A stretch of 64,000 bases of DNA from NCBI RefSeq assembly GCF_041248615.1, contig NZ_CP158426.1. One strand, given 5' to 3'. Below, piece by piece: positions 42,001 to 45,000 of the stretch. Made by a program: the position numbers. Every line of letters begins with the position of its first letter. Position 1 is the stretch's first letter. The stretch comes from Escherichia coli (lineage in GTDB: Bacteria; Pseudomonadota; Gammaproteobacteria; Enterobacterales; Enterobacteriaceae).

Positions 42001-45000
42001 ATTAAGGTTTAGATTGCATTCTGAAAGCGCATCAACGGTCATGGCTGCTATGTTGATCATCACTTTTTCGCGTTTTTTATCTTTGCGCAAACGGTGACGG
42101 ATAAGGCGTCCATCAGCCAACATGTCATTGATGGTATCGATGGACAGCCCTGTCAGCTCGCTATAGCGTTCAATAGTCACATGAGGCGTGGTAAGAGTGA
42201 TTGAAATGTTAGGTCTCATGATGCAACATTCCTCGTTTAATGATGATTAATCAGGACGAATACGGATCGTTTGTATTTTGTGAACACCATAAACATACGA
42301 TCGCACAATGAAATCGTCAAGACAAAAGTTCACTTGGAGTGACCATGAATTTGGAGAAAGGCGGACGAGGCGCTATAGAGCGCATGGTAGAAGCTTATGG
42401 ATTCAAGACTCGACAGGCGTTGTGCGATCATTTAGGAATCTCTAAAAGTACACTCGCCACACGCTACATGCGTGACTCATTCCCCGCAGAATGGGTAATC
42501 CAGTGCGCCCTTGAAACGGGCACCTCGCTTAATTGGCTCACAACCGGGCATGGTTCAAAGCAAACTTCAGGTAATACAAATACTATGGAAGTTGCTAAAT
42601 ATGTATTATCTGATGGGGCCTTGTGTGAAGACGGTTTTTATATTTTCGATAGGGGATTTCTACCGTCGGCATTCAAGAGTCTTTTTGTAATCACAGATAA
42701 TAATTCTGAATGTATTTGTGATAAGGAATTTGATGATATACGTGATGGTAAATGGGTAATAAGTATTGATGGTGAAATAACGATCCGTGACATTACTCGT
42801 TTACCCGGCGGAAGAATCTTCGTCGAGGGTGGAAACAGAGCGTTCGAATGCAAGATAGAAGACATTGAAATAATTGGTAAAATTATAAGTTTAACAGTCA
42901 AGTATGTTAAATAGTACCGGGAGGAAACTATGCTTGGTAAGGTATTTTTTGTGGTTTTGTCATGTTCTTTGTTATTAAACCCACTAACTACCTATGCTAG
43001 AAATTATCCCTGTTCAGGGAAAAAGGGAGGTGTTTCTCACTGTACCTCAGATGGCAAATTCGTTTGCAATGATGGAACTATTAGTAAATCCAAAAAAATC
43101 TGTACTAAAAACTCACGATAACTTTTGCTTTTATATCTGCGCCTAAAATAAAAATGAGCCGCAGGTTAACCGCAAAAGTTACATGCTCACATAGCAAAAA
43201 GAATAGCCAACTTAATTATGGCTTCAGTGAGATGTATGGTCGTAGGATTTCATACATTGACACTGGTTATACATACAGTGAAAATGCTCTCTACTGGAGG
43301 GCATTTTTTATGGCAGTACGAAAACTCACCACAGGGAAATGGCTTTGCGAATGTTACCCCGCCGGACGTAATGGGCGTCGTGTGCGTAAACAATTCGCCA
43401 CCAAAGGCGAAGCACTGGCCTTCGAGCGATACACCATGGGGGAAATAGAAGCAAAGCCCTGGCTGGGCGAATCAGTGGATCGTCGGACACTGAAAGATAT
43501 GGTTGAGCTATGGTTCAAATTACATGGCAAATCTCTTACTGCCGGACAGCATGTCTACAACAAGCTGCTGTTGATGGTTGACGCCTTGGGAAATCCCCTT
43601 GCAACTGATCTCACCTCAAAAATGTTTGCTCACTATCGCGATAAACGCCTTACTGGTGAAATCTACTTCAGTGAAAAATGGAAGAAAGGAGCAAGCCCAG
43701 TTACTGTTAACCTGGAGCAAAGCCATCTAAGCAGCGTTTTCAGAGAACTTTCCCGCCTGGGTGAATGGACACTTCCAAACCCATTAGAGAAGATGCGCAA
43801 ATTCACTATCGCAGAAAAGGAAATGGCATGGCTTACACATGAGCAGATTATCGAATTACTGTCTGACTGCAAACGTCAGAACCCAATTCTGGCACTGGTG
43901 GTAAAAATATGTCTAAGTACAGGTGCACGTTGGCGAGAAGCAATCAATCTTGCTCGCTCACAGGTCACCAAGTACCGAATCACCTTTGTGAGAACGAAGG
44001 GTAAGAAAAACAGAAGCATCCCTATCAGTAAAGAGCTTTATGAAGAGATAATGGCGCTCGATGGGTTCAATTTCTTCACAGACTGCTATTTTCAATTTTT
44101 ATCCGTGATGGAAAAAACGTCTATCGTTCTCCCTCGCGGTCAACTGACACACGTTCTGCGCCATACGTTTGCGGCGCACTTCATGATGTCGGGTGGAAAC
44201 ATCTTGGCCTTACAAAAAATTCTCGGACATCACGATATAAAAATGACTATGCGTTATGCGCATCTGGCACCGGATCATTTGGAAACGGCGCTCCGTTTCA
44301 ATCCACTGGCAACGTTACCAAATGGCGACAAAGTGGCGGCAGCGGTTGGCATTACCCCGTAATAACCACCACTGACCACCACATTAAGTTATTGTTTTTC
44401 ATCTAACTTATTGTTTTTATTAACCCATTTAGATAAGTGGGTTTTTTGTTATCTAAAATTTATCTACTACCCTGCAACCCTCTCAACCATCCTCAAAATC
44501 TCCTCGCGCGATAGCGGCTTACGGTCGGTGACAAAATGCAGCGTCATCCCCTCAATAAACGCATCAAGCGCGCGGGCGGTTCCGGGTTCAAACCATTGTT
44601 CGAGCGTTTGCTGACTGCGCTGCATCCAGTTTTGCATTACCGTTTTTAATAGCGGTTTTCGGCTAGCCAGCGCGTAGAGCTGATACATCAGCTCCATATT
44701 ATCCGGCGTTGCAACCTGTGAGCTGTAGATCATATCGGTGATAGCCTGGCATGCGCCTTGAGCATCACTAACATCGCTAAAAAATGCCTGATATTGCCGG
44801 GACATGATCTCAGTAAAACTGCTGAACGCCTCCAGCAACAACTCATCAATTCCTGAAAAATAGTAGGTCATCGATCCCAACGGTACCCCGGCAAGGGTAG
44901 CAATTTTGCGGTGCGTAACAGCATGTATTCCATAAAGTTTCACCGCCTCCAGCGTGGCCTGGATAATTTTTTCTCGCCGTTGCGGATCGTTAGCGCGACG

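What the first reader, a model, noticed from the sequence alone, without database searches (positions are those of the whole stretch)
42930..43121. Small secreted cysteine-rich protein in the lysogenic operon between cI and int
A 63-aa ORF with a near-ideal SD (GGGAGGA) has a hydrophobic N-terminus with a lipobox-like VLSC and five cysteines in the predicted mature part. Its position downstream of the repressor gene means it would be expressed in the lysogen. Candidate lysogenic-conversion or superinfection-exclusion factor.
Basis: partly seen in the sequence, partly recalled or inferred. Interest (0 to 1): 0.45.

Follow-up and report, generated by a model that had tools for sequence, protein, structure and literature searches.

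The report
Prophage YdcA-family periplasmic mini-protein
This is a real, very strongly conserved small gene that a P2/186-like E. coli prophage expresses together with its repressor; it encodes a 40-residue secreted, disulfide-bonded protein of the known but uncharacterised YdcA family, is not a lipoprotein, and is an accessory "moron" gene whose function is still untested.

Summary
The 63-codon ORF at 42930-43121 is a genuine gene. The exact protein is already catalogued as WP_000900883.1 ("hypothetical" or "YdcA family protein"). It passes the curated cutoff of NCBIfam NF007463 and matches PHROG 6000 and Pfam PF27300 (YdcA).

It lies 15 nt after cI, behind a GGGAGGA Shine-Dalgarno, in a 186-like prophage integrated next to rcdA. 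About 13% of complete E. coli genomes carry this stretch, including BL21.

The VLSC "lipobox" is not one. Family-wide, the signal peptide ends in an invariant Ala (TYA|RN), and Cys12 is not conserved. The mature peptide has 40 residues, four invariant Cys and pI 9.7.

The mature domain is 71-95% identical across prophages whose CI proteins are only 28-70% identical. Synonymous sites are saturated, so the protein is conserved and the DNA is not. The order cI, then ydcA-like, then int recurs in Escherichia, Klebsiella, Enterobacter, Yersinia and Haemophilus phage HP2, where the ORF is unannotated.

New leads are homology to the lobes of Legionella Dis2 and recurrent fusion of the domain to secreted nucleases.

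Function is unproven. A periplasmic exclusion or envelope role is plausible, and K139 Glo sets a precedent in the same slot.

The parts
42345..42914 (+). cI repressor gene (189 aa from the PGAP start; the mechanical ORF starts at the GTG at 42339). It is the first cistron of the lysogenic operon.
   Evidence: Pfam Phage_CI_repr E 2.8e-33 and Phage_CI_C E 1.2e-25. Annotated as phage repressor protein CI in E. coli A29.
42919..42925 (+). Shine-Dalgarno GGGAGGA for the ydcA-like gene, inside the 15-nt cI-ORF gap.
   Evidence: Sequence read directly. Relatives have similarly short cI-ydcA gaps (15-53 nt), and in HP2 the two genes overlap as TAATG.
42930..43121 (+). ydcA-like gene: 63 codons plus stop. 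It is a prophage paralogue of E. coli YdcA.
   Evidence: NCBIfam NF007463 115.8 bits (cutoff 93). phrog_6000 E 1.9e-34. Pfam PF27300 precomputed on the near-identical (98%) representative P0001 of this protein's 90% cluster. The annotated A29 product over the identical DNA is WP_000900883.1. 57% identical to K-12 YdcA.
42930..42998 (+). Signal peptide, residues 1-23 ([23 protein letters not shown]). Predicted signal peptidase I site is TYA|RN.
   Evidence: Invariant Ala at -1 in alignment A1. 179 of 184 family presequences end in Ala, with a small residue at -3 in about 78%. The lipobox pattern does not match.
42999..43118 (+). Mature 40-residue domain [40 protein letters not shown]: 4.29 kDa, pI 9.7, four invariant Cys.
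   Evidence: Alignment A2 (110 sequences) has invariant P4 C5 S6 G10 G11 C15 C23 S29 S31 C35. AF2 mean pLDDT 81.8. Composition.
43122..43220 (+). Spacer with no counterpart in the related loci compared (about 100 nt). It corresponds to the point where relatives carry extra cargo (KAP NTPase). It contains a long imperfect hairpin at about 43119-43180.
   Evidence: Local blastn: homology to L007/L011 stops at 43113 and resumes at 43221-43230. RNA fold of 43100-43320 gives z = -5.96.
43257..43285 (+). Sigma-70-like promoter match TTGACA-17-GAAAAT upstream of int. The TTGAC element is conserved in related int modules.
   Evidence: Consensus scan, 10 of 12 matches. The ATTGA core and ACT are invariant; TTGAC is kept in 5 of the 6 sequences and is TTGAT in L023 (alignment A3). 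Function not shown.
43280..43308 (+). Terminator-like hairpin (13 pairs, -16 kcal/mol) followed by a U-run that ends at the int AUG. Its 3' arm contains the int Shine-Dalgarno GGAGGG.
   Evidence: Fold z = -6.0. An equivalent hairpin plus U-run with different stem sequences (compensatory changes) is found in L007, L011 and L023.
43310..44362 (+). Tyrosine integrase, 350 aa.
   Evidence: Pfam Int_N and Phage_integrase, phrog_1. PGAP start in A29. Conserved ATGGCAGTACGAAAAC start.
41998..42219 (-). Divergent apl/cox-like excisionase-repressor gene. It marks the lytic arm of the switch.
   Evidence: phrog_575, Cox-like excisionase and repressor, E 4.8e-30.

Best explanation
The ORF is a genuine prophage-borne paralogue of the E. 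coli periplasmic protein YdcA (Pfam PF27300, NCBIfam NF007463).

Proposed mechanism:
- It is the second cistron of the cI (lysogenic) transcript, so it is made in the lysogen.
- The precursor is exported by Sec and cut by signal peptidase I after Ala23. It is not lipidated.
- It is oxidised in the periplasm to a 40-residue, strongly basic mini-domain with two disulfides.
- It is accessory cargo (a moron) in the variable cI-int slot of 186-like and HP1-like Peduoviridae. It is not a core phage function.

Inferred function. Its only structurally characterised relative is Legionella Dis2, which docks on outer-membrane lipoproteins. The domain is also recurrently fused in front of secreted nucleases of three confirmed unrelated folds (a fourth, HNH, only weakly). 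From these I infer that the domain is an outer-membrane-proximal docking or polyanion (DNA)-binding module. The free phage copy would then act in the lysogen's envelope against incoming foreign DNA, an exclusion-type role like that of Glo in phage K139.

Shown: gene reality, family membership, operon position, type of signal peptide, purifying selection, synteny.
Inferred: expression, periplasmic location, disulfides.
Speculative: the exclusion or DNA-related function.

My probabilities:
- Real YdcA-family gene: 0.97.
- Sec / signal peptidase I periplasmic protein: 0.85.
- Co-transcribed with cI: 0.8.
- Accessory moron: 0.8.
- Exclusion or foreign-DNA-related function: about 0.3.

The overall confidence of 0.5 weights the well-supported anatomy against the speculative function.
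For: Family membership:
- NF007463 above its cutoff, phrog_6000, PF27300.
- Exact K-12 YdcA confirmed, 57% identical to this protein.

Operon position:
- The 15-nt gap to cI holds the SD and has no room for a terminator.
- Gaps are tight in relatives. HP2 has a TAATG overlap with cI, and Enterobacter has TGATTATG into int.

Signal peptide:
- Invariant Ala at -1, variable hydrophobic core, Cys12 not conserved, lipobox pattern fails.

Selection:
- Mature domain 71-95% identical against CI 28-70%.
- pN 0.01-0.05 against pS 0.8-1.0 among enterobacterial alleles.

Synteny and prevalence:
- cI then YdcA-like then int (with or without KAP NTPase) in E. coli, Klebsiella, Enterobacter, Yersinia and Haemophilus HP2.
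- Present in 694 of 5426 complete E. coli genomes.

Moron character:
- GC 34.9% against 50% for the window.
- Absent from the relatives 813R9 and RE-2010.
- Sits in the late operon of Moraxella and Acinetobacter siphophages.

Cargo slot:
- The KAP NTPase neighbour matches PADLOC PDC-S20, E 1e-171.
- A cI-int hotspot is reported for K139-like phages (PMC9122126).
- K139 Glo is annotated as periplasmic and involved in phage exclusion.

Dis2 link:
- Profile E 4.9e-5.
- Dis2 chains are the top two Foldseek hits, probability 0.85-0.89, against 0.08 or less for all others.
- A Dis2 homologue carries precomputed PF27300, and both lobes hit the NCBIfam YdcA models.
- hhalign probability 82%.
- Dis2 sits near the outer membrane and contacts DotK, DotC and DotD (PMC12716638).

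Nuclease fusions:
- Endonuclease_NS (P0211, P0183, P0215, P0139), SNase (P0119), PLDc_2 (P0209) and a weak HNH (P0210).
- The SNase fusion is itself cargo in a P2-like phage contig.
Against: - No expression, localisation or phenotype data exist for this gene or any phage homologue.
- It has no PADLOC match.
- Dis2 is not basic and has no known DNA contact, so the two functional clues do not point to one activity.
- Phage DNA normally crosses the periplasm inside a tail or ejection conduit, which limits what a soluble DNA binder could do.
- E. coli already has a chromosomal ydcA, so the phage copy could simply add dosage of a housekeeping or stress function.
- The only reported phenotype for K-12 ydcA is acid/3-hydroxypropionate sensitivity (PMC7642389), not phage-related.
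- Fusion counts come from only the top 150 representatives of 453 clusters.
Confidence: 0.5

Rival explanations
1. Envelope or acid-stress fitness factor. The phage copy supplies extra or constitutive YdcA activity to the lysogen. This would be lysogenic conversion that benefits host physiology and has nothing to do with foreign DNA.
For: - It is a close paralogue of chromosomal ydcA (57% overall; the mature part is about 79% identical by tblastn to E. coli chromosomes).
- The paper states that ydcA is YdcI-controlled and acid-induced, and that its deletion sensitises E. coli W to 3-hydroxypropionate (PMC7642389).
- Non-phage chromosomal and plasmid copies are widespread.
Against: - The host already has ydcA.
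- The phage alleles form their own NCBIfam equivalog (NF007463, as opposed to NF007462 for the K-12 type).
- The repeated placement in a defence-cargo slot and the nuclease fusions are not explained.
Confidence: 0.25
2. Lipoprotein. LspA cleaves before Cys12, and the acylated 52-residue protein with five cysteines is anchored in a membrane, like the Llp or Cor exclusion lipoproteins.
For: VLSC is present, with Ser at -1. UniRef labels one Yersinia homologue 'Lipoprotein'.
Against: - The Cys is at position 12 with only a 7-residue hydrophobic stretch before it, and Lys4 lies inside the excluded window. The lipobox pattern fails.
- Cys12 is not conserved. In relatives that keep a Cys there, F, I or V sits at -1.
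- A canonical hydrophobic core plus P-x-x-T-Y-A site follows, with Ala -1 invariant across the family.
Confidence: 0.04
3. Core phage function. The gene, or its mRNA, is needed for lysogeny control or for int expression, and is not cargo.
For: It has a fixed position immediately after cI in six genera. Structured RNA lies between it and int.
Against: - It is absent from close relatives with the same cI/int architecture: 813R9 at the same rcdA site, and RE-2010.
- It occurs in the late operon of unrelated siphophages and on chromosomes and plasmids.
- A signal peptide argues for an envelope role.
- Selection acts on the protein, not the DNA.
Confidence: 0.05
4. Periplasmic protease inhibitor resembling plant Pin-II (potato type II) inhibitors.
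For: Weak sequence matches to several Pin-II inhibitors. CAGTKGCKYFSDDGTFVC...KAC aligns with [19 protein letters not shown]...KIC, with E 0.07-3.
Against: - The E-values are not significant, and all the hits belong to one family.
- Pin-II domains have eight Cys; this domain has four.
- The residues that would correspond to the reactive loop lie in the tail after the last Cys. That tail is variable and often only 1-2 residues long in the family.
- Pin-II chains do not appear among the 50 listed (best-scoring) structural matches.
Confidence: 0.03
5. An unexpressed or decaying ORF that survives only by hitch-hiking with cI.
For: It is tiny, annotated 'hypothetical', and no expression data were found.
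Against: There is saturated synonymous divergence with almost no amino-acid change. It has a strong SD. The reading frame is intact across genera, and the family has 453 clusters at 50% identity.
Confidence: 0.02

Closest known systems
E. coli K-12 YdcA (YDCA_ECOLI); YdcA family (Pfam PF27300; NCBIfam NF007462/NF007463; PHROG 6000)
   Same: It has the same architecture: a Sec signal peptide ending in Ala, followed by a domain of about 36 residues with the motif PCSGxKGG[VI]xxC...F[VI]CxDGxxSxSKKxC and four invariant Cys. It scores above the curated cutoff of NF007463.
   Different: It is phage-borne, sits in the cI operon and belongs to a different NCBIfam equivalog from chromosomal YdcA, with only 57% identity. 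K-12 ydcA lies at cybB-ydcA-hokB-trg-ydcI, not in a prophage. The function of the whole family is unknown.
[quoted passage not shown]
   Same: Each Dis2 lobe aligns to the YdcA domain, including the Cys positions and the GG[VI] and hVCNDGxxS motifs. Support: profile E 4.9e-5; Dis2 chains are the top two Foldseek hits (38% identity, TM 0.57-0.63); a Dis2 homologue carries PF27300. Both are exported, disulfide-rich and periplasmic.
   Different: Dis2 has two lobes pinned by five disulfides, is not basic and is a stoichiometric T4SS component that contacts DotK, DotC and DotD (PMC8486379, PMC12716638). The phage protein is a single basic domain with no T4SS genes nearby. The published papers call Dis2 Legionella-specific with no structural relatives, so the link itself is a lead and not an established fact.
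Glo of Vibrio cholerae phage K139 (Peduoviridae)
   Same: It occupies the same genomic slot (lysogenic operon PL-cI-orf2-glo-int), has a signal peptide and is annotated as a periplasmic protein involved in phage exclusion. That it was shown experimentally by Nesper et al. 1999 is my recollection, not a tool result.
   Different: There is no sequence similarity. Glo has 137 residues and lacks the YdcA motif, and tblastn with the query found no Vibrio phage. The analogy is one of position and compartment only.
Defence cargo of the P2-like cI-int hotspot (for example the KAP NTPase PADLOC PDC-S20)
   Same: It shares the variable interval between cI and int. In E. coli and Klebsiella relatives the YdcA-like gene is immediately followed by a PDC-S20 KAP NTPase. 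A cI-int hotspot was described for K139-like phages (PMC9122126).
   Different: The YdcA-like protein matches no PADLOC model. It occurs with or without the NTPase, so it is not part of that system.
Classical envelope-acting superinfection-exclusion proteins (T4 Sp/Imm, P22 SieA, T5 Llp, phi80 Cor) - recalled from the literature, not tested here
   Same: These are small prophage- or phage-encoded proteins acting at the envelope against incoming phage DNA. Several are exported or lipidated.
   Different: No homology was tested or is expected. Those proteins are membrane proteins or lipoproteins, whereas this one is predicted to be soluble and periplasmic.

Membership tests
YdcA family (NCBIfam NF007463 / Pfam PF27300) | Whole-protein score above the curated model cutoff | tested here: met
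   NF007463 scores 115.8 bits against a cutoff of 93, covering residues 5-63 on model positions 1-58. PF27300 is precomputed on the near-identical (98%) cluster representative P0001.
YdcA family (NCBIfam NF007463 / Pfam PF27300) | Conserved motif with four invariant cysteines (PCSGxKGG..C..F.C.DG..S.SK..C) | tested here: met
   All invariant columns of the 110-sequence alignment A2 are present in the query, and likewise for A1.
YdcA family (NCBIfam NF007463 / Pfam PF27300) | N-terminal Sec signal peptide with a type I cleavage site just before the domain | tested here: met
   Ala at -1 is invariant in A1. 179 of 184 members have Ala 0-7 residues before PCS, and the query has TYA|RN. No dedicated predictor (SignalP) was available.
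Bacterial lipoprotein (lipobox, signal peptidase II) | Lipobox [LVI][ASTVI][GAS]C with the Cys about 15-35 residues from the N-terminus and no charged residue in the preceding hydrophobic stretch (PROSITE PS51257 rule, recalled) | tested here: not met
   The Cys is at position 12 and Lys4 falls in the excluded window. A PS51257-style regular expression gives no match.
Bacterial lipoprotein (lipobox, signal peptidase II) | Conservation of the lipobox cysteine among homologues | tested here: not met
   Cys12 is absent from most homologues. Where a Cys is present, F, I or V sits at -1. Lipobox-like strings are essentially confined to the query's own 90% cluster.
Bacterial lipoprotein (lipobox, signal peptidase II) | Acylation and globomycin-sensitive processing | not testable with these tools
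   Needs labelling or mass spectrometry.
Dis2 (Lpg0823)-type T4SS core-complex subunit | Sequence and fold similarity of the domain to a Dis2 lobe | tested here: inconclusive
Dis2 (Lpg0823)-type T4SS core-complex subunit | Two-lobed architecture with five disulfides | tested here: not met
   The query has a single domain with four Cys. The Dis2 description comes from PMC8486379.
Dis2 (Lpg0823)-type T4SS core-complex subunit | Genomic or physical association with a type IV secretion system | tested here: not met
   The neighbours are cI and int. Plasmid copies in Acinetobacter have no T4SS neighbours.
Prophage superinfection-exclusion factor of the cI-int slot (K139 Glo type) | Encoded in the lysogenic operon between cI and int, with an export signal | tested here: met
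   K139 arrangement.
Prophage superinfection-exclusion factor of the cI-int slot (K139 Glo type) | Homology to Glo | tested here: not met
   The Glo sequence lacks the motif. No Vibrio phage was hit by tblastn.
Prophage superinfection-exclusion factor of the cI-int slot (K139 Glo type) | Exclusion phenotype | not testable with these tools
   Needs plating-efficiency assays with and without the gene.
Known or candidate anti-phage defence proteins (PADLOC-DB v2) | Match to any defence-protein model | tested here: not met
   No families matched at E of 0.01 or better. The neighbouring KAP NTPase of relatives matches PDC-S20.
Moron (optional, independently acquired prophage cargo gene) | Atypical base composition and presence/absence polymorphism among otherwise syntenic relatives | tested here: met
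   GC is 34.9% against 41-53% for the neighbouring phage genes and 50% for the window. The gene is absent in 813R9 and RE-2010. It occupies different positions in siphophages.
Pin-II (potato type II) protease inhibitors | Significant similarity and the eight-cysteine pattern with a reactive-site loop | tested here: not met
   E is 0.07-3 only. The domain has four Cys, and the putative loop region is not conserved.

The most novel reading that the evidence does not exclude
The YdcA/Dis2 mini-domain would be a previously unrecognised periplasmic module that docks near the outer membrane and/or binds DNA or other polyanions. Bacteria attach it to secreted nucleases of at least three unrelated folds, and Legionella built it into its Dot/Icm machine. 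Temperate phages of several genera (Peduoviridae in the cI operon; Moraxella and Acinetobacter siphophages in the late operon) would deploy the free domain as a new class of small, lysogen-expressed blocker of foreign-DNA entry (superinfection, transformation or conjugation).
Probability: 0.2. Interest if true: 0.65.

Novelty: new member of a known kind. Interest (0 to 1): 0.4.

Why it matters
- The gene is carried by roughly one in eight sequenced E. coli, including the laboratory workhorse BL21. It is probably made whenever the prophage repressor is made, yet nothing is known about what it or the YdcA family does.
- Its mature domain is the most conserved protein segment of the whole lysogeny module across genera. 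That conservation implies a conserved envelope target.
- If the link to Dis2 and to secreted nucleases reflects function, a single cheap experiment in BL21 or a defined lysogen could do three things. It could assign a role to an orphan family. It could explain a "species-specific" Dot/Icm subunit. It could add a new type of small periplasmic factor to the list of prophage-encoded protection genes.
- If the gene instead duplicates a host stress function, it is an ordinary moron.

Tried and rejected
- Lipoprotein reading: rejected on position, pattern and lack of conservation.
- DUF3761 resemblance (recalled from memory): scanning all 110 domain sequences against Pfam gave one member at E 0.14, so it is not supported.
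- Other weak Pfam hits (GULLO2-like_3rd, TerY_C, EGF): all below their cutoffs and typical of Cys-rich noise.
- Pin-II protease inhibitor similarity: not significant, and the would-be reactive loop is not conserved.
- 'Conjugal transfer protein' label in UniRef: no T4SS context in prophages or Acinetobacter plasmids. The E. coli 'plasmid' hits are chromosomal fragments or chromosome-sized records misfiled as plasmids.
- lpg1681 family hit: E 0.11, ignored.
- Rfam: no RNA family in 41500-44600.
- Phage collection: no sequenced enterobacterial phage isolate carries the gene. Only Moraxella, Acinetobacter, Haemophilus and Pseudomonas phages do.
- The IMG/VR scan returned only identical E. coli alleles among its best 80, so it added prevalence (508 contigs) but no diversity.
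- The last homology search listed only single-domain members, so it could not extend the census of domain fusions.
- Literature searches for YdcA found only incidental mentions.
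Full report
**1. What is there**

Window 42930-43121(+) holds an ATG-initiated ORF of 63 codons. GGGAGGA lies at 42919-42925, with GGAGG ending 5 nt before the ATG. The stop codon of the upstream gene is at 42912-42914, so the gap is 15 nt.

The upstream gene is a 186-type CI repressor (Pfam Phage_CI_repr E 2.8e-33, Phage_CI_C E 1.2e-25). The divergent genes are a Cox/Apl-like excisionase and a CII (CP76) homologue. The downstream gene is a tyrosine integrase. Beyond the integrase lie the host genes rcdA-ybjJ-ybjI. The element is therefore a 186-like (Peduoviridae) prophage of E. coli integrated next to rcdA.

The integrase starts at 43310. This is the PGAP start in the identical stretch of E. 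coli A29, and the motif ATGGCAGTACGAAAAC is conserved. It does not start at the 43154 ATG of the mechanical 402-aa ORF.

**2. The ORF is a real, known gene**

- It exceeds the curated cutoff of NCBIfam NF007463 (115.8 bits against 93). It also matches NF007462 more weakly, and phrog_6000 at E 1.9e-34.
- The exact protein is in the public collection on more than 1000 contigs. It is named "hypothetical protein", "YdcA family protein" or, in UniRef, "Conjugal transfer protein".
- Its 98%-identical cluster representative carries a precomputed hit to Pfam PF27300, named YdcA.
- A 501-nt query spanning the gene matches 694 of 5426 complete E. coli genomes. In 589 of them the match covers at least 80% of the query.
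- BL21 has a deleted version of the prophage that keeps cI, this gene (R24K) and int.
- The namesake, chromosomal K-12 YdcA, was confirmed by exact look-up. It lies at cybB-ydcA-hokB-trg-ydcI and is 57% identical to the window protein.

**3. Secreted, but not a lipoprotein**

An alignment of 35 full-length homologues shows three regions:
- a variable hydrophobic N-terminus;
- an invariant Ala corresponding to Ala23;
- a nearly invariant domain that follows.

Among 184 family members, 179 have Ala within a few residues before the PCSG motif, and the -3 residue is A, T, S, V or G in about 78%.

Cys12 is not conserved. Where a Cys occurs at that position, F, I or V precedes it. In the query the Cys is at position 12, only 7 hydrophobic residues precede it, and Lys4 lies in the window that must be uncharged. 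A PS51257-style pattern fails.

The predicted product is therefore [40 protein letters not shown]: 40 residues, 4.29 kDa, pI 9.7, nine Lys/Arg and four Cys. Two periplasmic disulfides are inferred. SignalP was not available.

**4. Conservation**

Six loci from five genera were compared:

| Segment | Pairwise identity |
|---|---|
| Mature domain | 71-95% |
| Signal peptide | 17-67% |
| CI | 28-70% |
| Int | 49-95% |

In the 90-nt conserved core, enterobacterial alleles differ at 0.8-1.0 of synonymous sites but at only 0.01-0.05 of non-synonymous sites. The number of sites is small, but the direction is unambiguous: the protein is under strong purifying selection and the DNA is not conserved.

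The family comprises 453 clusters at 50% identity with E of 1e-3 or better, and includes members with two or three tandem domains.

**5. Synteny and cargo character**

| Element | cI-int interval or position |
|---|---|
| E. coli and Klebsiella relatives | cI, YdcA-like, KAP NTPase, int |
| Enterobacter | cI, YdcA-like, int (stop and start as TGATTATG) |
| Yersinia | cI, YdcA-like, int |
| Haemophilus HP2/S2 | cI, unannotated 60-codon homologue starting at the cI stop (TAATG), a secreted 254-aa ORF, int |
| 813R9 (same rcdA site) | a 558-aa ATPase instead |
| RE-2010 | nothing |
| Moraxella and Acinetobacter siphophages | the gene sits among late genes |

Other bacteria carry chromosomal or plasmid copies. 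The gene's GC is 34.9%, against about 50% for the window.

The KAP NTPase of relatives matches the PADLOC candidate system PDC-S20 (E 1e-171). The YdcA-like protein matches nothing in PADLOC. Rousset et al. describe a defence hotspot between cI and int in K139-like Vibrio phages (PMC9122126). K139 itself encodes Glo there, annotated "periplasmic protein; involved in phage exclusion". Glo is unrelated in sequence.

I conclude that the gene is an optional moron that prefers the first position of a cargo slot in the lysogenic operon.

**6. Transcription context**

No plus-strand terminator lies between cI and the gene. Downstream, about 100 nt (43122-43220) have no counterpart in the relatives compared; this corresponds to the cargo insertion point.

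From about 43221 the int module is conserved. It contains:
- a promoter-like TTGACA-17-GAAAAT at 43257-43285;
- a 13-pair hairpin at 43280-43308 (-16 kcal/mol, z = -6) followed by a U-run that ends at the int AUG. The int Shine-Dalgarno lies in its 3' arm.

Related int modules keep a hairpin plus U-run with different stem sequences, which indicates compensatory change. I infer that the cI-ydcA transcript is terminated or attenuated there. I also infer that int translation from read-through RNA is occluded. Neither has been shown.

**7. Structural and functional leads**

*Dis2 link*
- A family profile matches one solved protein: chain AN of 7MUC/7MUD, which is Legionella Dis2 (Lpg0823), at E 4.9e-5.
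- An AlphaFold2 model of the mature domain has mean pLDDT 81.8. Its top two Foldseek hits in the PDB are the Dis2 chains (probability 0.85-0.89, TM 0.57-0.63, 38% identity). All other hits have probability 0.08 or less.
- Dis2 homologues carry a precomputed PF27300 hit. They match only the two YdcA NCBIfam models, through both lobes. hhalign gives 82%.

*Nuclease fusions*
- Of the 149 listed representatives, 48 have 115 residues or more.
- Six or seven of these carry the YdcA domain in front of a secreted nuclease: Endonuclease_NS (P0211, P0183, P0215, P0139), SNase (P0119), PLD-like (P0209) and, weakly, HNH (P0210).
- The SNase fusion is itself low-GC cargo beside gpD in a P2-like phage contig.

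*What is known about YdcA*
- K-12 ydcA is poorly studied. One paper reports that it is YdcI-controlled and acid-induced, and that its deletion sensitises E. coli W to 3-hydroxypropionate (PMC7642389).

**8. Interpretation**

*Shown:* a real YdcA-family gene; its position as the second cistron after cI; a type I signal peptide; strong purifying selection; recurrent synteny; optional, low-GC cargo character.

*Inferred:* expression in lysogens, periplasmic location, two disulfides.

*Speculative:* the function.
- My preferred reading (about 0.3) is that the domain is an outer-membrane-proximal docking or polyanion/DNA-binding module, and that the free phage copy interferes with entry of foreign DNA, as Glo does in K139.
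- The main rival (about 0.25) is that it augments a host YdcA envelope or acid-stress function.
- Lipoprotein, core-phage, protease-inhibitor and non-functional readings are each unlikely.

**9. Novelty and score**

The gene and its family are already catalogued, so the finding is not a new kind of thing. It is a new, undescribed member of the class of prophage morons in the cI-int slot.

The following were not found in the papers or records consulted:
- the observation that it is the most conserved protein segment of the lysogeny module;
- the unannotated HP2 gene;
- the Dis2 homology;
- the nuclease fusions.

These give a tractable hypothesis that can be tested in BL21. Interest is moderate (0.4).

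Noticed in passing
L001 (Haemophilus phage HP2, NC_003315) 2920-3102, + strand of the locus: There is an unannotated 60-codon YdcA-family gene ([60 protein letters not shown]). Its ATG overlaps the cI stop (TAATG). It lies between cI and orf1(S), and the same gene is in phage S2.
   Followed up: yes
PDB 7MUC/7MUD chain AN; proteins P0228 and P0229: Each lobe of Legionella Dis2 (Lpg0823), described in the literature as Legionella-specific and without structural relatives, appears homologous to the widespread YdcA domain. Support comes from the profile E 4.9e-5, the top Foldseek hits, a precomputed PF27300 hit, and both lobes matching the NCBIfam YdcA models.
   Followed up: partly
window 43257-43308 (+): A conserved terminator-like hairpin plus U-run ends exactly at the int start codon, with the int Shine-Dalgarno in its 3' arm. 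A conserved TTGAC-type promoter-like element lies just before it. Stems differ between related int modules in a compensatory way. This suggests attenuation or occlusion of int expression from the cI transcript.
   Followed up: partly
L007 4198-5529; L011 4198-5529; L023 4091-5767; L015 5281-6843: The cI-int interval, and in one case the region just past int, carries variable ATPase cargo in relatives. Examples are a KAP NTPase matching PADLOC PDC-S20 (E 1e-171), a 558-aa 'chromosome segregation ATPase' in phage 813R9, and an HEC-04-like ATPase. This is a defence-type hotspot in enterobacterial 186-like prophages, analogous to the one reported for K139-like Vibrio phages.
   Followed up: partly
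Proteins P0211, P0183, P0215, P0139, P0119, P0209, P0210; L112 3001-3669: The YdcA domain is fused in front of secreted nucleases of three confirmed unrelated folds (Endonuclease_NS, SNase, PLD-like) and, weakly, a fourth (HNH). The SNase fusion is a low-GC cargo gene beside gpD in a P2-like phage contig.
   Followed up: partly
Proteins P0056, P0058, P0121, P0130, P0151, P0159, P0168, P0171, P0181, P0224, P0226: Many longer members have a second, C-terminal Cys-rich basic module, CxCRxGxxCxGPRGGxYC...G.KSY..[KR]. It resembles the first half of the YdcA domain and has no Pfam match in the local copy.
   Followed up: no
window 43154-44362 (+): The mechanical ORF list gives a 402-aa integrase ORF. 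The real start is 43310 (350 aa). The in-frame upstream extension covers part of the ydcA-int spacer.
   Followed up: yes
window 42910..42882 (- strand): There is a near-consensus sigma-70 promoter match (TTAACA-17-TATAAT, 11 of 12) at the 3' end of cI, pointing antisense into cI. It may be chance in AT-rich DNA, and its conservation was not checked.
   Followed up: no
window 43119-43180 (+): A long imperfect hairpin lies immediately after the ydcA-like stop codon (AACUUUUGC...GCAAAAGUU) and is not followed by a U-run. The whole 43100-43320 RNA folds with z = -5.96. Its role is unknown; possibilities are a 3'-end stabiliser or a recombination scar.
   Followed up: no
L105 (E. coli BL21, NZ_CP060121) 2046-4025: BL21 carries a defective copy of this prophage, with the replication gene and cII truncated. 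It retains intact cI, the YdcA-like gene (R24K) and int, which makes the gene easy to test in a standard laboratory strain.
   Followed up: partly
L002 3035-3619 compared with window about 40415: The otherwise near-identical prophage of E. coli A29 has an extra 3'-5' exonuclease gene between dam and the TraR/DksA-like gene. The window lacks it, which produces a coordinate offset of 581 nt.
   Followed up: no
Protein cluster of P0001 and P0065: UniRef names this protein 'Conjugal transfer protein'. No conjugation genes were found near any copy examined, so the name looks like an annotation artefact.
   Followed up: partly
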